A DNA stretch of 64,000 bases. It comes from Escherichia phage vB_EcoM_CUA3. Position numbers and translations under genes: made by a program. The stretch is taken from the sequence record PP410321, one strand, 5' to 3'. How positions within the stretch are numbered: the first letter of the stretch is position 1; each line of letters opens with the position of its first letter. Positions 15,099 through 36,672 of this stretch are shown here, piece after piece. The notes under the pieces were generated by a model. It was not told the origin of the DNA and ran no database searches. It saw only the letters and a list, made by a program, of their open reading frames with translations.

Positions 15099-15127
15099 AT
15101 AGTATCATTTCTACTGGAGATGTAAAC
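15099..15127 (-). promoter_or_regulatory. T4-type early promoter
   Basis: GTTTAC (15122-15127), 17 nt, TACTAT (15099-15104). Confidence 0.55.
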
Positions 15128-16921: not shown

Positions 16922-17892
16922 TCGACGAACTTGTCCCAGAACTTCATGTCCACCTTCGCAGGCATACCATTCTTAGCTGCCCAGATGGCATTGGTTTCGA
17001 CTTCATCAACTATAGCTTCGAGCTCAGCCTGTACATCTTTAAAAGCATGTAGCCCTTGTTTGATTTCAAGGATAAATGGTGCTGTTCGTAAAGGATATTG
17101 AAGGTCACCAGTTTGATAGATTTCCTTCAACTGGTATCCAGCCCGATAAGCATGGCTCAGAGCTTTCCAGTCAATACCTTCATTGGCTTCTGCCTTACGA
17201 GCGCGCTCGCCATATTCAGCATCAAGTTTATTCAGGGATTGCTTGAGCTCTGTAATTGATAACGTTGTTTGGTACTTACGTCCGAGAACAGTATAGAACG
17301 TTTGTGGACCTGTTTTCTCATGGTTATGGAATACCCATTCACAGAACTCGTTTTCAGGGAGTCTGTGTTTGATATCTTCTACCTTAGTACGACGNNNNNN
17401 NNNNNNNNNNNCTTCTTGATAGTCGACCCACTGTTCAGGAATCTGGTTAACGATTGCCAGTACACCACGCAGTGCAGCCAATCGAGAACCTTTAACACCA
17501 TATTTGGAAGCTTGCTTACGGACATACCCTAAATAGGCTTTCATGTTAGTTGTATAGAACCGAGAACGGTTGTCTTGGATAAACTTCCACACATCCGGTA
17601 AATCAGATTTGACTACCAGTTCAGGAGGGGTATGAATCATGTCTAGAGCAACAGTTTCACCTTCAGCGGCCAGTTTAAAGAAATATTTCAGACTATAAAG
17701 CTCATGGTCAATATCGTCTTTTGTATTTTTGGATGCAGTGTTATTCGTGTTCAGGTTGGTATGGTTCATTGCCGTACCCAACAGAATATCACGCGGATGA
17801 GGAACAAAGATTTCTTTAAAATCGACATCAGATTCTGGAGTACTTGTTCCATAAAGATGGCTACCGAAGTAGCCTTTCATAACTGTTCTCAT
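16922..17892 (-). CDS. predicted nucleotidyltransferase (minimal NTase fold), 3' end masked
   Basis: N-terminal GS-x9-SDVDF motif (YFGSHLYGTSTPESDVDF) typical of Pol-beta-superfamily nucleotidyltransferases; ATG 17890-17892. Confidence 0.55.
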
Positions 17893-18341
17893 TTCTTAGC
17901 CTCAAAATGGATTACCGGACACATCTTAGATTTACGAGCTTTAATATATTGNNNNNNNNNNNNNNNNNNNNNNNNNNNNNNNNNNNNNNNNNNNNNNNNN
18001 NNNNNNNNNNNNNNNNNNNNNNNNNNNNNNNNNNNNNNNNNNNNNNNNNNNNNNNNNNNNNNNNNNNNNNNNNNNNNNNNNNNNNNNNNNNNNNNNNNNN
18101 NNNNNNNNNNNNNNNNNNNNNNNNNNNNNNNNNNAACAGGAGTACTCAATACAAAGAACTGCTCCAATATACCGGCACCTGCAACAGTTAAGCCGAAAAT
18201 AGTACTACCTGCAANNNNNNNNNNNNNNNNNNNNNCCCAAACCATTTTCCAGAAGTATGCNNNNNNNNNNNNNNNNNNNNNNNNNNNGNCATAAAAGCGG
18301 TCATGTAATTTAACATGCCAAGAGTTTTCATTGATAATCAT
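17889..18341 (-). CDS. hypothetical protein (mostly masked)
   Basis: ORF ends visible, body N-masked; one hydrophobic segment. Confidence 0.25.
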   Translation of the reverse strand: MIINENSWHVKLHDRFYXXXXXXXXXXAYFWKMVWXXXXXXXXAGSTIFGLTVAGAGILEQFFVLSTPVXXXXXXXXXXXXXXXXXXXXXXXXXXXXXXXXXXXXXXXXXXXXXXXXXXXXXXXXXXXXXQYIKARKSKMCPVIHFEAKK

Positions 18342-18351
18342 AATATTTNCC

Positions 18352-18912
18352 TTAAGGGTTCATAGTTGGGATAACAGAGTTCAGATAAGATACTAAAACT
18401 TTTAGCTCGTCCTTCGTAAATACAACTTCATTTTCACCGTCGTGTCTTTGGACCAAGGATAGCAAATCACGGCCCTGGTGTTGATACACGGTTAGTTCGG
18501 TATCATAATCCATTTCTTCTTCATCACCTTCAAAGGTTTCACTAGAACGAATTACGGCATCTTGACCAGGGACTTTCCATTCAACTTCCGGCTTGCATTC
18601 TTCCTGGAACAGTTTAAAAATACATTTAAAGAAATTACTAGAATCGCTAATGCTCAGACATTCNNNNNNNNNNNNNNNNNNNNNNNNNNNNNNNNNNNNN
18701 NNNNNNNNNNNNNNNNNNNNNNNNNNNNNNNNNNNNNNNNNNNNNNNNNNNNNNNNNNNNNNNNNNTGTTTGTCCAAAACCTTTAAATCATAAAGCGGCT
18801 TGATATCTTGGATAGTCAGTACGATTTTATCGTCTTCTTGTGAAAGCACAATTGCATTATCAACTACTTCAGCAGTCAGGTCACCAAACAGCCCAGATGT
18901 TTCAATAATCAT
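18352..18912 (-). CDS. hypothetical acidic protein
   Basis: 186-aa ORF, middle masked. Confidence 0.35.
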   Translation of the reverse strand: MIIETSGLFGDLTAEVVDNAIVLSQEDDKIVLTIQDIKPLYDLKVLDKXXXXXXXXXXXXXXXXXXXXXXXXXXXXXXXXXXXECLSISDSSNFFKCIFKLFQEECKPEVEWKVPGQDAVIRSSETFEGDEEEMDYDTELTVYQHQGRDLLSLVQRHDGENEVVFTKDELKVLVSYLNSVIPTMNP

Positions 18913-18922
18913 TTTCCGTTCC

Positions 18923-19195
18923 TCACCGGTTATGTTTTAAAATACTATAAAGCTCTTCGACTTGGCTTGCATTCAGACAAATCATATCATTTTCTTGTTG
19001 GAGCGTGATTCCGCCTTTTTCTTCCCAATCTTTAACAAAGATGTCATCGTCAGACTCTTCGACATCTGCCAAAAGGACAATAATACCATCTTCAGAACAA
19101 CCGTTTGGATCGTATAACATTACAGTTTCCTCGCTAACCATGAAAAGAATAAACCTATTAAAACTGGACCAATAAGCATTGTAAGCCAAGCCCAA
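18923..19195 (-). CDS. hypothetical protein
   Basis: 90-aa ORF. Confidence 0.35.
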   Translation of the reverse strand: MGLAYNAYWSSFNRFILFMVSEETVMLYDPNGCSEDGIIVLLADVEESDDDIFVKDWEEKGGITLQQENDMICLNASQVEELYSILKHNR

Positions 19196-19211
19196 GGTTC
19201 AAGATAGTAAA

Positions 19212-19469
19212 TCATCTCATGCTCCTATGCCAGCAGTTACGTGGCTCACGTTTAAAAATTTCATCATGCATTGACTGACAACCTATACAGTATATCACAC
19301 CTTTGATAGCTTGACGTCGTGCTTCAGGAATCTCTTCATCACAATCAAAACAATATTTAGCCGATTCACGTTCAACTGCTACTTGCTTACGGGCGTGTAC
19401 TATAGCGGCCTGAACGACCGCTTCCATTTCTAGCTGTTCAGCTCCGTCCTTAGCAAATCCAACGGCCAT
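19212..19469 (-). CDS. TraR/DksA-family C4 zinc-finger protein
   Basis: CFDCDEEIPEARRQAIKGVIYCIGCQ matches the TraR/DksA zinc-ribbon signature; 85 aa. Confidence 0.65.
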   Translation of the reverse strand: MAVGFAKDGAEQLEMEAVVQAAIVHARKQVAVERESAKYCFDCDEEIPEARRQAIKGVIYCIGCQSMHDEIFKREPRNCWHRSMR

Positions 19470-19920
19470 TATGCTTTCAACTCATTAAGATACTCAACCA
19501 AGGCTGCTTTAGAGTTAGCCAAATCCCGTTTACACTGCTCTATTCCGGAATACGAATAGCCTTCGCAATATTCAACAGCTAGGTCATTGGATGCGTTTTC
19601 AATGTGCTGGGCGAGTTTGATAATTTTCTCAATCTGTTCAGTAGTTAACATAANNNNNNNNNNNNNNNNNNNNNNNNNNNNNNNNNNNNNNNNNNNNNNN
19701 NNNNNNNNNNNNNNNNNNNNNNNNNNNNNNNNNNNNNNNNNNNNNNNNNNNNNNNNNNNNNNNNNNNNNNNNNNNNNNNNNNNNNNNNNNNNNNNNNNNN
19801 NNNNNNNNNNNNNNNNNNNNNNNNNNNNNNNNNNNNNNNNNNNNNNNNNNNNNNNNNNNNNNNNNNNNNNNNNNNNNNNNNNNNNNNNNNNNACTNTTCT
19901 CCTCATTAGTTGATAGGTCT

Positions 19921-19949
19921 ATAGTATCACGTTCCTAGAGGATGTAAAC
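19921..19949 (-). promoter_or_regulatory. T4-type early promoter
   Basis: GTTTAC (19944-19949), 17 nt, TACTAT (19921-19926); drives a masked downstream gene. Confidence 0.55.
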
Positions 19950-19957
19950 ACCAAAAC

Positions 19958-19984
19958 GAAAAAAGGTCCCACCGAAGTGAGACC
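19958..19984 (-). terminator. rho-independent terminator
   Basis: minus-strand GGUCUCAC-UUCG-GUGGGACC hairpin followed by UUUUUU, directly after the stop of the 19990..20373 gene. Confidence 0.6.
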
Positions 19985-19989
19985 TTTGA

Positions 19990-21800: not shown

Positions 21801-22003
21801 TTAGGTTCACCATATCGCACAAATTTAGGATGTTCGCACCCACCAGAATAAAGGCCTTCGCCTTTATGGTTAATGCACCCTTTATTGGAACAGTACCACC
21901 AGTAATCATATTCGCAATTCATTTCATCATTGCATAAAGCTGCGATTACCGGCCATTCACATTTTTCACATTTAGCCGTTTTAAGAATTCTAGCTTGGCT
22001 CAT
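21797..22003 (-). CDS. Cys-rich small protein or C-terminal zinc-ribbon domain of the upstream macro-domain protein
   Basis: CEKCEW...CNDEMNCEYDYWWYCSNKGC...GGCEHP; relation to upstream ORF hidden by N run 22009-22256. Confidence 0.3.
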   Translation of the reverse strand: MSQARILKTAKCEKCEWPVIAALCNDEMNCEYDYWWYCSNKGCINHKGEGLYSGGCEHPKFVRYGEPK

Positions 22004-22256
22004 AACCANNNNNNNNNNNNNNNNNNNNNNNNNNNNNNNNNNNNNNNNNNNNNNNNNNNNNNNNNNNNNNNNNNNNNNNNNNNNNNNNNNNNNNNNNNNN
22101 NNNNNNNNNNNNNNNNNNNNNNNNNNNNNNNNNNNNNNNNNNNNNNNNNNNNNNNNNNNNNNNNNNNNNNNNNNNNNNNNNNNNNNNNNNNNNNNNNNNN
22201 NNNNNNNNNNNNNNNNNNNNNNNNNNNNNNNNNNNNNNNNNNNNNNNNNNNNNNNN

Positions 22257-22651
22257 AATTTAGAAACCTTGTCCCAATCACCGCCAGCAATACCACAACC
22301 TATGCGCGGAATATAAATTCTTGGTTTAAACAAAAGGGTTTCTGCTTGTAGATTTAATTCTATCATACAGTTTACTAAAGCACCGTAATCAAGATTAGGG
22401 CCTGGTTCGTATTGGGTGTATAAATTATAGCANNNNNNNNNNNNNNNNNNNNNNNNNNNNNNNNNNNNNNNNNNNNNNNNNNNNNNNNNNNNNNNNNNNN
22501 NNNNNNNNNNNNNNNNNNNNNNNNNNNNNNNNNNNGCTAATTGACCCGCTACACCTGAACCCATAGTGTGAAAACAATTACACCCATGTGCAATAATATT
22601 ACCTTGGAGAAACAGGGCGACGATATCGCCCTTAATATAATTAATAATCAT
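22257..22651 (-). CDS. macro-domain (ADP-ribose binding/hydrolase-like) protein, C-terminal part masked
   Basis: N-terminal GDIV...GNIIAHGCNC...GSGVAGQL and downstream IYIPRIGCGIAGGD match the two macro-domain signature blocks; ATG 22649-22651. Confidence 0.55.
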
Positions 22652-24043: not shown

Positions 24044-24072
24044 ATAGTACCACGCCTACAGGAGATGTAAAC
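24044..24072 (-). promoter_or_regulatory. T4-type early promoter for regB
   Basis: GTTTAC (24067-24072), 17 nt, TACTAT (24044-24049); 9-bp inverted repeat pairs the SD with the spacer. Confidence 0.6.
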
Positions 24073-26305: not shown

Positions 26306-26758
26306 TTAATCTCCTGTAGTTGATAGGTTTATAGTATCATGCCTACAGGAGATGTAAACNNNNNNNNNNNNNNNNNNNNNNNNNNNNNNNNNNNNNNNNN
26401 NNNNNNNNNNNNNNNNNNNNNNNNNNNNNNNNNNNNNNNNNNNNNNNNNNNNNNNNNNNNNNNNNNNNNNNNNNNNNNNNNNNNNNNNNNNNNNNNNNNN
26501 NNNNNNNNNNNNNNNNNNNNNNNNNNNNNNNNNNNNNNNNNNNNNNNNNNNNNNNNNNNNNNNNNNNNNNNNNNNNNNNNNNNNNNNNNNNNNNNNNNNN
26601 NNNNNNNNNNNNNNNNNNNNNNNNNNNNNNNNNNNNNNNNNNNNNNNNNNNNNNNNNNNNNNNNNNNNNNNNNNNNNNNNNNNNNNNNNNNNNNNNNNNN
26701 NNNNNNNNNNNNNNNNNNNNNNNNNNNNNNNNNNNNNAAATTCATTGTAAGTTTTCAT
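26306..26758 (-). CDS. internal protein with capsid-targeting leader (ipII/ipIII-type), body masked
   Basis: N-terminus MKTYNEF; located between denV and e as the T4 ipII/ipIII genes. Confidence 0.55.
26331..26359 (-). promoter_or_regulatory. T4-type early promoter for denV
   Basis: GTTTAC (26354-26359), 17 nt, TACTAT (26331-26336); perfect 9-bp inverted repeat ctcctgtag/ctacaggag. Confidence 0.6.
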
Positions 26759-36439: not shown

Positions 36440-36515
36440 TGGTCGAGACAGTAGGGATCGAACCTACGACCCAGGACTTAGAAGGTCCTTGCTCTTCCTT
36501 CTGAGCTATGCCTCG
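36440..36515 (-). tRNA. tRNA-Arg (anticodon UCU)
   Basis: manual cloverleaf: acceptor cgaggca/tgtctcg, D-arm gctc...gagc, anticodon loop cuUCUaa, T-arm gtagg-ttcgatc-cctac, encoded CCA. Confidence 0.8.
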
Positions 36516-36519
36516 TATT

Positions 36520-36594
36520 TGGCGGACATGCATGGATTCGAACCATGGACCAATTGATTAACAGTCAACTGCTCTACCACTGAGCTACACATCC
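36520..36594 (-). tRNA. tRNA-Asn (anticodon GUU)
   Basis: manual cloverleaf: acceptor ggatgtg/catgtcc with G-U pairs, D-arm gctc-agtggta-gagc, anticodon loop cuGUUaa, T-arm catgg-ttcgaat-ccatg, encoded CCA. Confidence 0.75.
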
Positions 36595-36598
36595 AAAT

Positions 36599-36672
36599 TG
36601 GTGGCCCTGGGTGGAATCGAACCACCATCCAGCGATTATGAGTCGCTCGCTTGACCGTCCAGCTACAGGGCC
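36599..36672 (-). tRNA. tRNA with CAU anticodon (Met or lysidine-type Ile)
   Basis: manual cloverleaf: acceptor ggccctg/cagggcc, anticodon stem agcga/tcgct, loop cuCAUaa, T-arm ggtgg-ttcgatt-ccacc, encoded CCA. Confidence 0.75.

What the first reader, a model, noticed from the sequence alone, without database searches (positions are those of the whole stretch)
19212..19469. TraR/DksA-type zinc-finger protein in a phage early region
The C-x2-C...IPEARR...C-x2-C block is the hallmark of TraR/DksA RNA-polymerase secondary-channel binders. In this position it could modulate host RNA polymerase during takeover, a function I do not associate with T4 itself.
Basis: partly seen in the sequence, partly recalled or inferred. 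Interest (0 to 1): 0.5.

Follow-up and report, generated by a model that had tools for sequence, protein, structure and literature searches.

The report
YbiI-type TraR/DksA zinc-finger gene
A small early gene of a T4-like (JS98-type) coliphage encodes a zinc-finger protein of the TraR/DksA family, whose tested members bind host RNA polymerase; the gene is real, but it is already annotated and published as present in many T4-like phages though not in T4, and its function there is untested.

Summary

The window is a Dhakavirus (JS98/JS10-like). Identical proteins are already deposited as "YbiI", "PA4870" or "zinc finger". [quoted passage not shown] I confirmed that T4 has none.

The new detail is that this protein, like every T4-type homologue I checked, belongs to the YbiI branch and not the TraR branch. 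Its tip reads FxxDxA instead of DxxDxA, it has two extra N-terminal residues, and it carries a conserved basic tail. All experimentally tested phage homologues came from temperate phages.

The RNA-polymerase contact residues P48, E49, R51, R52 and G57 are invariant, and the tip is under strong purifying selection. The gene lies third behind a recurrent early-type promoter.

Binding in the polymerase secondary channel is the most likely mechanism, but it is inferred, not shown. Family membership is solid. Novelty is low.

The parts
19212..19469 (-). 85-aa YbiI-type TraR/DksA-family zinc-finger protein gene, stop codon included
19434..19469 (-). Codons 1-12, MAVGFAKDGAEQ: the N-terminal tip with F5-x-x-D8-x-A10, the counterpart of TraR D3-x-x-D6-x-A8
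   Evidence: It is near-invariant in 43 phage-clade sequences. 11 of 12 codons vary only synonymously. The register comes from tip-Asp to first-Cys spacing: TraR 31, YbiI 31, window 32 with a one-residue linker insertion.
19278..19352 (-). Residues 40-64: the C4 zinc ribbon (C40, C43, C61, C64). It encloses I47-PEARR-52 (19314-19331) and G57.
   Evidence: C40, C43, I47, P48, R51, R52, G57, C61 and C64 are invariant in alignments A1 and the phage clade. They correspond to TraR P45, E46, R48, R49 and G54, residues probed experimentally.
19215..19256 (-). Residues 72-85, FKREPRNCWHRSMR: a conserved basic and aromatic C-terminal tail that TraR lacks. It aligns with the YbiI tail ...YNRRGSKDSQLR.
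   Evidence: R77-N-C-W-H-R82 is invariant in 43 sequences. The tail is kept with different codons in PBECO4, which has no overlapping downstream gene. It aligns to YbiI-type tails. AlphaFold2 confidence here is low.
19921..19949 (-). Early-type sigma-70 promoter GTTTAC-N17-(TG)ATACTAT heading the operon
   Evidence: Searches show the site. The motif GTTTAC-N16-18-TANNAT occurs 10 times in the window, all on the minus strand, against 0.73 expected. Four copies share about 50 nt of promoter, leader and Shine-Dalgarno sequence.
19962..19987 (-). Terminator-like hairpin plus T-run after rI.-1, insulating the operon from upstream transcription
   Evidence: 11-pair stem with 5 GC pairs, followed by TTTTCGTTTT.
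19656..19892 (-). First gene of the operon, 78 aa with no family hit. It is N-masked in the window and its coordinates were transferred from phage UP19.
   Evidence: L001 4757-4993. No Pfam hit.
19469..19651 (-). Second gene, mobD.3-like (DUF7438, 60 aa). Its stop overlaps the zinc-finger gene's start (TAATG).
19120..19215 (-). Downstream 31-aa hydrophobic ORF. Its ATG overlaps the zinc-finger stop (ATGA), and its Shine-Dalgarno sequence AGGAG lies in codons R82-S83.
   Evidence: The same ORF is annotated in Mosigvirus DCP548.

Best explanation
The gene encodes a YbiI-type member of the TraR/DksA zinc-finger family. It is transcribed early in infection by unmodified host sigma-70 RNA polymerase, as the third gene behind a strong early-type promoter.

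The protein most likely docks on host RNA polymerase the way TraR does:
- The zinc-ribbon domain (I47-PEARR-52, G57) sits on the beta-prime rim helices and Si3 at the mouth of the secondary channel.
- The N-terminal helix runs down the channel, so the tip (G4-F5-A-K-D8-G-A10) reaches the active-site region.
- The short C-terminal helix (62-71) faces the beta lobe and Si1.

Bound in this way, it would change initiation kinetics without ppGpp. It would lower transcription from short-lived open complexes such as host rRNA and ribosomal-protein promoters, or at least keep DksA and Gre factors out of the channel. Either effect would free polymerase and nucleotides for phage genes.

Shown here: family membership, a TraR-like predicted fold, conservation of the contact residues, purifying selection on the tip, and the early-type promoter. 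Inferred: RNA-polymerase binding, which promoters are affected, and the benefit to the phage.
For: Family and fold:
- Pfam zf-dskA_traR scores above its cut-off.
- Among NCBIfam models, YbiI-type PRK11019 scores best at 76 bits.
- PDB sequence hits are YbiI and RNA-polymerase-bound TraR.
- Foldseek hits are YbiI, TraR and DksA.

Contact residues:
- TraR P45, E46, R48, R49 and G54 correspond to window P48, E49, R51, R52 and G57. All are invariant in A1, and E49 is near-invariant (42 of 43) in the wider phage clade. Their roles in TraR are described.

Tip:
- D8 and A10 match TraR D6 and A8. TraR D6N abolishes function.
- The tip is the most constrained segment, with 11 of 12 codons varying only synonymously across four genera.

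Precedent:
- All five tested phage homologues bind RNA polymerase and inhibit rrnB P1.
- X. bovienii Gp34 lacks the first Asp, yet binds as well as TraR and complements a dksA deletion.
- YbiI itself is reported to rescue the dksA auxotrophy when overproduced.

Expression:
- A terminator and an early-type promoter stand upstream.
- That promoter class is strongly over-represented on the coding strand.
- No MotA-box motif lies between the promoter and the gene.
Against: - The first Asp of DxxDxA is replaced by Phe. Orf73 D3N is much less active, and D3 is described as required in TraR.
- There are two extra N-terminal residues, although TraR S2 already lies 4.3 A from the catalytic Mg. The authors suspect that an N-terminal extension lowers the activity of VHML Orf8.
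- TraR P43, whose P43A variant binds poorly, corresponds to E46 here and is not conserved.
- Scores fall below NCBIfam's curated cut-offs for both the TraR subfamily (51.5 against 59.7) and the YbiI equivalog (76 against 96).
- No YbiI-type protein has published RNA-polymerase data. [quoted passage not shown]
- The gene is dispensable. It is absent from T4 and decayed to a chimera in a Mosigvirus.
- Model confidence is only moderate, and both tip and tail are poorly modelled.
Confidence: 0.55

Rival explanations
1. Passive channel plug. The protein binds the RNA-polymerase secondary channel through the conserved zinc-ribbon surface, but it lacks TraR-like allosteric activity because the first Asp is missing. 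Its role would be to exclude host DksA/ppGpp and GreA/GreB, as Rnk does. This would blunt a host stringent response or change elongation and backtracking behaviour during infection.
For: The binding residues P48, E49, R51, R52 and G57 are conserved, while the catalytic-site motif is incomplete, FxxDxA. In DksA the tip aspartates are needed for function but not for binding. Rnk is a precedent for a binder that only competes.
Against: The tip is the most strongly conserved part of the protein, which a plug that only needs to bind would not require. Gp34, which lacks D3, still regulates transcription. YbiI is reported to substitute for DksA, not to antagonise it.
Confidence: 0.2
2. A role specific to the YbiI branch and unrelated to RNA polymerase. 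The zinc ribbon, the conserved N-terminus and the basic aromatic tail ([W/Y]-[H/N]-R...) bind some other partner, such as a nucleic acid, a ribosome-associated factor or a metal-homeostasis component. The resemblance to TraR would then be shared ancestry only.
For: The YbiI branch has its own conserved N-terminus, MAxG[W/F], and a tail absent from TraR. Some C4 proteins of this family do not act like DksA. YbiI was considered more likely linked to iron metabolism and is still listed as of unknown function. Scores are below the curated TraR subfamily cut-off.
Against: The residues conserved across the TraR and YbiI branches are exactly those that touch RNA polymerase in TraR. The whole TraR chain superimposes on the model. 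Bacterial YbiI-type genes show no conserved neighbourhood pointing to another pathway. YbiI rescues a dksA mutant when overproduced.
Confidence: 0.2
3. Not a functional gene: a chance ORF or a decaying remnant.
For: The gene is accessory. It is absent from T4 and reduced to a chimeric 55-aa ORF in Mosigvirus DCP548.
Against: The full-length protein is conserved from Dhakavirus to Moonvirus, Marfavirus and the roughly 350-kb Asteriusvirus. Substitutions are overwhelmingly synonymous in the tip and the zinc ligands. 671 phage records hold a homologue. The gene is tightly coupled to its neighbours by TAATG and ATGA overlaps.
Confidence: 0.02

Closest known systems
E. coli YbiI (PDB 2kgo; NCBIfam PRK11019), an 88-aa DksA/TraR-family zinc-finger protein of unknown function
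   Same: - It is the best sequence match among solved structures (E 3.6e-9) and among NCBIfam models (76 bits).
- The N-terminus has the same layout: MAxG[W/F]A-x-D-x-A, with the Asp at position 8.
- It shares the IP(E/Q)ARR block, has a similar length, and carries a C-terminal extension with an aromatic-[N/H]-R core.
   Different: - Identity is only about 37%, and the score is below the curated equivalog cut-off of 96 bits.
- The phage clade has Phe where YbiI has Trp, a one-residue longer linker, and its own invariant tail PRNCWHRSMR instead of YNRRGSKDSQLR.
- It is phage-encoded and driven by an early promoter, not a chromosomal rpoS-dependent gene.
F-plasmid TraR (PDB 5w1s, 6n57) and its tested temperate-phage homologues: lambda Orf73, P2 Orf82, VHML Orf8, VP882 Orf61 and X. 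bovienii Gp34
   Same: - It has the same three-part architecture: N-terminal helix, C4 globular domain, C-terminal helix.
- Equivalents of TraR D6, A8, P45, E46, R48, R49 and G54 are conserved.
- It is small and carried by a mobile element or phage.
- The likely mode of action is the same: ppGpp-independent binding in the RNA-polymerase secondary channel.
   Different: - The first Asp of DxxDxA is Phe, there are two extra N-terminal residues, and P43 is not conserved.
- It has a 14-residue conserved tail beyond the C-terminal helix.
- Identity to TraR is 25% in alignment A3.
- Scores are below the TIGR02419 (51.5 against 59.7) and PRK13715 cut-offs.
- It is carried by a strictly lytic T4-type phage, whereas all tested homologues come from temperate phages or a plasmid.
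DksA (151 aa; PDB 7khi, 5vsw)
   Same: It shares the C4 zinc-ribbon globular domain and the D-x-A tip element (DksA D74 and A76). It is a weaker structural hit.
   Different: It has no two-helix coiled coil and no ppGpp-contacting region. The NCBIfam DksA_like score is 13.4 against a cut-off of 105. It is about half the length of DksA.
'DksA-like zinc-finger protein' genes of other T4-type phages: Moon gp109, CC31p107, JD18 gp090, Ac42p137 and 44RR ORF130c
   Same: Moon gp109 is an orthologue, 76% identical at the same locus. The others are YbiI-type homologues, about 36-47% identical in alignment A3 and encoded in T4-type (Straboviridae) genomes; Ac42's lies next to rI. [quoted passage not shown]
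   Different: CC31, JD18 and Ac42 carry the bacterial-type tail YNRRGSKDSQLR and a GWGPSD tip. The Dhakavirus, Moonvirus, Marfavirus and Asteriusvirus clade has GFAKDGA and PRNCWHRSMR.

Membership tests
Pfam PF01258 zf-dskA_traR (TraR/DksA C4 zinc-finger superfamily) | HMM score at or above the gathering threshold | tested here: met
   38.1 bits against a cut-off of 24.9, E 1.6e-9, residues 38-66.
Pfam PF01258 zf-dskA_traR (TraR/DksA C4 zinc-finger superfamily) | Four Cys ligands arranged as CxxC-N17-CxxC | tested here: met
   C40, C43, C61 and C64 are invariant in 43 clade members.
Functional TraR class (Gopalkrishnan et al. 2017 and 2022) | DxxDxA motif at the tip of the N-terminal helix | tested here: not met
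   The tip is F5-A-K-D8-G-A10. The second Asp and the Ala are present, but the first Asp is Phe (Trp in YbiI). The register rests on tip-to-Cys spacing. Gp34 also lacks D3 and is still active at a lower level.
Functional TraR class (Gopalkrishnan et al. 2017 and 2022) | Globular-domain residues equivalent to R48 (rim helices) and R49 (beta-prime Si3), plus P45 and E46 | tested here: met
   P48, E49, R51 and R52 are present; P48, R51 and R52 are invariant and E49 is in 42 of 43 clade members. The P43 equivalent is E46 and is not conserved.
Functional TraR class (Gopalkrishnan et al. 2017 and 2022) | C-terminal helix after the fourth Cys, which contacts beta Si1 | tested here: met
Functional TraR class (Gopalkrishnan et al. 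2017 and 2022) | Binds RNA polymerase, inhibits rrnB P1 without ppGpp and complements a dksA deletion | not testable with these tools
   This needs biochemistry and genetics. The only related datum is the YbiI 'data not shown' remark.
NCBIfam TIGR02419 C4_traR_proteo (phage and conjugal-plasmid TraR subfamily) | Score at or above the curated cut-off | tested here: not met
   51.5 bits against 59.7.
NCBIfam NF008243 PRK11019 (YbiI equivalog) | Score at or above the curated cut-off over the full length | tested here: not met
   76 bits against 96. The match covers residues 1-71 and stops before the tail. This is still the best-scoring model, so the protein is YbiI-like but not an equivalog.
YbiI-type branch, as delimited here | N-terminus MAxG[W/F]xxDxA with Asp at position 8, and a C-terminal extension with an aromatic-[N/H]-R core | tested here: met
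   Alignments A1 and A3. In the tip tally of 150 representatives, 54 have WxxDxA, 11 have FxxDxA and 25 have DxxDxA.
DksA proper | N-terminal coiled coil of two long helices, ppGpp site 2 residues, and a length of about 150 aa | tested here: not met
   The protein is 85 aa with a single N-terminal helix. NF033459 scores 13.4 against 105.

The most novel reading that the evidence does not exclude
The YbiI branch, including the copies carried by lytic T4-type and jumbo coliphages, may be a mechanistically distinct class of secondary-channel effector. It has an aromatic residue in place of the first tip Asp, a two-residue N-terminal extension that could reach or occlude the catalytic centre, and a conserved basic tail with no counterpart in TraR. 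In that reading it does something TraR does not. It might directly block catalysis on unmodified host polymerase, or shield the channel from DksA/ppGpp and Gre factors. That would be an unrecognised layer of RNA-polymerase takeover in T4-like phages other than T4.
Probability: 0.15. Interest if true: 0.6.

Novelty: already known. Interest (0 to 1): 0.27.

Why it matters
T4 is the textbook case of phage takeover of host RNA polymerase, through Alt, ModA, AsiA, MotA, Alc and gp55/gp33. None of those factors uses the secondary channel.

Many T4 relatives, though not T4, carry this small zinc-finger gene. If the protein does bind the channel, it would add a ppGpp-independent, TraR-like step to early takeover in lytic phages. 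So far that activity has been shown only for a plasmid protein and proteins of temperate phages.

It would also give the first function for the widespread YbiI branch, including E. coli YbiI itself.

As it stands, the finding is a correct family assignment that is already in public annotation and in a 2015 genome note. Its value lies in a cheap, well-defined experiment, not in a discovery.

Tried and rejected
1. **T4 remnant.** I asked whether T4 hides a diverged copy at the syntenic spot (mobD.2, mobD.2a). Their translations and six-frame tblastn and phmmer of all 168,903 bp show nothing. The best E for this protein is 0.28, with no Cys4 pattern of this type. The TraR and YbiI queries were verified exactly against PDB chains.
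2. **Tail conserved only through DNA overlap.** The tail might have been conserved only because its last codons carry the Shine-Dalgarno sequence and start of the next ORF. Rejected: PBECO4 keeps the same residues with different codons (AGA TCT, TAA stop) and has no overlapping gene.
3. **Second metal site.** I considered a site built from H25, C79 and H81, which are invariant in the phage clade. It is unlikely, because the divergent relative P0082 has Val at position 79 yet keeps WHRSMR.
4. **Bacterial gene context.** The context of bacterial YbiI-type genes was examined as a clue to a role away from RNA polymerase. The neighbours are unrelated in both loci, so there is no lead.
5. **Middle promoter.** No MotA-box promoter lies directly upstream, either in the window or in UP19, which covers the N-masked stretch.
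6. **Recent transfer.** Base composition gives no sign of it. GC is about 0.40-0.43, like the neighbours.
7. **Neighbouring genes.** Pfam gives only DUF families (DUF7438, DUF7189, DUF5856) and the T4 y05I-like mobD.1, so no functional module is implied.
8. **Literature.** Searches for functional work on T4-type or YbiI-type proteins found nothing beyond annotation-level mentions.

Full report
**1. The observation**

Window 19212-19469 is a complete ORF on the minus strand, 85 codons plus a TGA stop. Its product is MAVGFAKDGAEQLEMEAVVQAAIVHARKQVAVERESAKYCFDCDEEIPEARRQAIKGVIYCIGCQSMHDEIFKREPRNCWHRSMR. The only competing ORF on the other strand is 40 aa.

The match is not chance:
- Pfam zf-dskA_traR scores 38.1 bits against a gathering score of 24.9.
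- PHROG 54 'DksA-like zinc-finger protein' gives E 4.6e-20.
- The best NCBIfam model is the YbiI-type PRK11019 at 76 bits. Next come the TraR subfamily TIGR02419 (51.5), F-plasmid TraR (29.2) and DksA (13.4). All four are below their curated cut-offs.
- Among solved structures the best sequence hits are E. coli YbiI (2kgo, E 3.6e-9) and TraR from its RNA-polymerase complexes (5w1s and 6n57, E about 2e-4).

**2. Where it sits**

The window is 96-97% identical in DNA to Escherichia phages Esco_phi_B-01, JS10 and MN04, and about 95-96% to UP19 and JS98. These are JS98/JS10-type phages; JS10 and UP19 are classified in genus Dhakavirus, Tevenvirinae. The 85-aa protein is identical in MN04, JS10 and UP19.

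The T4-style gene order is nrdC.11 - membrane protein - mobD.1 - DUF7189 gene - 31-aa hydrophobic ORF - zinc-finger gene - mobD.3 - 78-aa ORF - rI.-1 - rI - tk. Everything is on the minus strand.

Directly after rI.-1 there is a terminator-like hairpin (19987-19962). It is followed by GTTTAC-N17-TGATACTAT (19949-19921), a GAGGAG ribosome-binding site, and then three tightly packed genes. The zinc-finger gene is the third. It is joined to its neighbours by TAATG and ATGA overlaps.

The promoter motif GTTTAC-N16-18-TANNAT occurs 10 times in the window, all on the minus strand, against 0.73 expected. Four copies share about 50 nt of promoter, leader and Shine-Dalgarno sequence. This resembles the promoter-early/stem-loop cassettes described for T4-type hyperplastic regions (PMC2839356).

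No MotA-box motif lies between this promoter and the gene, in the window or in UP19, which covers the N-masked stretch. So 'early region' is supported by sequence. Expression timing itself was not measured.

**3. Is it absent from T4?**

Yes. I assembled the whole T4 genome and searched it in six frames with this protein, TraR, YbiI and DksA. The best E for this protein is 0.28. There is no Cys4 pattern of this kind. The small T4 ORFs at the syntenic place, mobD.2 and mobD.2a, are unrelated.

**4. Prior knowledge**

This is not new:
- Nolan et al. 2006 listed the Pfam dksA/traR hit for Aeromonas phage 44RR ORF130c (PMC1524935).
- Public records name the gene 'ybiI', 'hypothetical protein PA4870', 'C-4 type zinc finger protein', 'TraR family zinc finger protein' or 'DksA-like zinc-finger protein'.
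- 671 phage records hold a homologue.

**5. What kind of family member is it?**

The Gourse laboratory showed that F-plasmid TraR and five homologues all bind RNA polymerase, inhibit rRNA and r-protein promoters without ppGpp, and complement a dksA mutant. The five are lambda Orf73, P2 Orf82, VHML Orf8, VP882 Orf61 and X. bovienii Gp34. Four are encoded by temperate phages and Gp34 by a likely prophage.

The determinants they name are an N-terminal helix with DxxDxA, a C4 globular domain with R48 and R49, and a C-terminal helix facing beta Si1. They also stress that not all C4 proteins of this family act like DksA (PMC9239242).

Against these criteria:
- **(b) Globular contact residues.** TraR P45, E46, R48, R49 and G54 correspond to P48, E49, R51, R52 and G57. 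P48, R51, R52 and G57 are invariant in 43 clade members and E49 is in 42 of 43. TraR P43, whose Ala variant binds poorly, corresponds to the non-conserved E46.
- **(c) Tip.** Tip-Asp to first-Cys spacing is 31 in TraR, 31 in YbiI and 32 here with a one-residue linker insertion. The TraR and YbiI reference sequences were verified. On that register, D8-G-A10 corresponds to TraR D6-E-A8, and TraR D3 corresponds to F5 (Trp in YbiI). There are also two extra N-terminal residues. This register is an inference. MAFFT alone shifts it by one residue.

D6N abolishes TraR function (PMC2613031). D3N or D6N each cripple Orf73. Gp34, which naturally lacks D3, still binds RNA polymerase as well as TraR and works at a lower level. 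TraR S2 lies 4.3 A from the catalytic Mg (PMC6970531), so a longer N-terminus could matter.

**6. The YbiI branch**

Among the 150 closest cluster representatives, tips fall into two main classes: MAxG[W/F]xxDxA (54 Trp, 11 Phe, plus relaxed variants) and MxDxxDxA (25). The first class often ends in ...[Y/F]NRRGSKDSQLR, as E. coli YbiI does.

The window protein belongs to the first class. So do all the other T4-type phage homologues I fetched: Karamvirus CC31, Jiaodavirus JD18, Acinetobacter phage Ac42 and Aeromonas phage 44RR.

The clade formed by Dhakavirus, Moonvirus, Marfavirus and Asteriusvirus has its own invariant tail, PRNCWHRSMR. Its W-H-R core aligns with YbiI's Y-N-R.

Codon analysis across window, JS10, Moon, EK29 and the roughly 350-kb phage PBECO4 shows two things:
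- In the tip, 11 of 12 codons vary only synonymously, with no amino-acid change.
- The tail is kept at the protein level even where no downstream gene overlaps it.

The only functional statement for YbiI is that it rescues the dksA auxotrophy when overproduced. That was reported as data not shown, and the authors leaned toward an iron-related role. It is otherwise listed as an rpoS-dependent gene of unknown function.

**7. Mechanism**

The best-supported reading is a TraR-like, ppGpp-independent binder of the RNA-polymerase secondary channel, made early in infection. I put this at about 0.55. Family membership itself I put at about 0.97.

Three alternatives remain:
- a binder that only blocks the channel to host factors (about 0.2);
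- a YbiI-specific role unrelated to RNA polymerase (about 0.2);
- a non-functional ORF (about 0.02, contradicted).

**8. Dispensability**

The gene is accessory. T4 lacks it.

Mosigvirus DCP548 carries a 55-aa chimera. A copy of the start of the neighbouring DUF7189 gene is fused to the last 30 residues of the zinc-finger protein, without the N-helix or the first CxxC. This chimera accounts for the second PHROG hit, phrog_25948.

**9. Verdict**

The finding is already in the literature and in public annotation. What this analysis adds is the assignment to the YbiI branch, the incomplete tip motif, the conserved tail, and the early promoter cassette.

Noticed in passing
L012 1459-1626 (Mosigvirus DCP548); also proteins P0044, P0048, P0063 and P0065: This is a chimeric 54-64 aa ORF. 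A duplicate of the N-terminus of the neighbouring DUF7189 gene (MLYD...) is fused to the last 30 residues of the zinc-finger protein (VIYCVGCQSMHDEIFKREPRNCWHRSMR). The N-helix and the first CxxC are lost. It forms its own PHROG (phrog_25948) and looks like a decayed remnant kept in RB69-like phages.
   Followed up: partly
window 19120-19215 (-): This is a 31-aa strongly hydrophobic ORF, MIYYLEPWAWLTMLIGPVLIGLFFSWLARKL. It is translationally coupled to the zinc-finger gene by an ATGA overlap, and its AGGAG Shine-Dalgarno sequence lies inside codons R82-S83. It is not annotated in JS10 or UP19, but it is annotated and nearly identical in Mosigvirus DCP548.
   Followed up: partly
window 15099-15127, 19921-19949, 24044-24072 and 26331-26359 (all minus strand): Four copies of a roughly 50-nt cassette: GTTTACATC...TGnTACTATAGACCTATCAACTAC.GGAG, covering promoter, leader and Shine-Dalgarno sequence. 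They are part of 10 early-type promoter matches, all on the minus strand, against 0.73 expected. They resemble the PeSL regulatory cassettes proposed to drive gene shuffling in T4-type phages.
   Followed up: partly
window-wide, e.g. 1182, 9161, 33594, 37057 (minus strand): The MotA-box-like motif TGCTT-N13-15-TANNNT occurs 25 times against 8.7 expected, mostly on the minus strand. This is consistent with T4-type middle promoters in this phage.
   Followed up: no
L010 1501-1758 (Escherichia phage PBECO4, KC295538); also phage UB, MH383160: These roughly 350-kb jumbo coliphages (PBECO4 is an Asteriusvirus) encode a 67%-identical copy of the same zinc-finger protein, but the gene is not annotated in those records. 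The presence of the clade in an unrelated jumbo-phage genus implies horizontal exchange.
   Followed up: partly
window 19656-19893 and other stretches, e.g. within 17000-18800 and 21900-22500: The window contains runs of N, that is, masked sequence. The two genes upstream of the zinc-finger gene had to be read from the near-identical phage UP19 (L001).
   Followed up: yes
window 36440-36672 (-): A cluster of three tRNA genes: Arg-TCT, Asn-GTT and Met-CAT.
   Followed up: no
window 18352-18912 (-): The mobD.1 homologue matches the Pfam families T4_y05I_N and T4_y05I_C ('y05I-like putative transcription factor'). It is another uncharacterised putative transcription protein, three genes downstream of the zinc-finger gene.
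   Followed up: no
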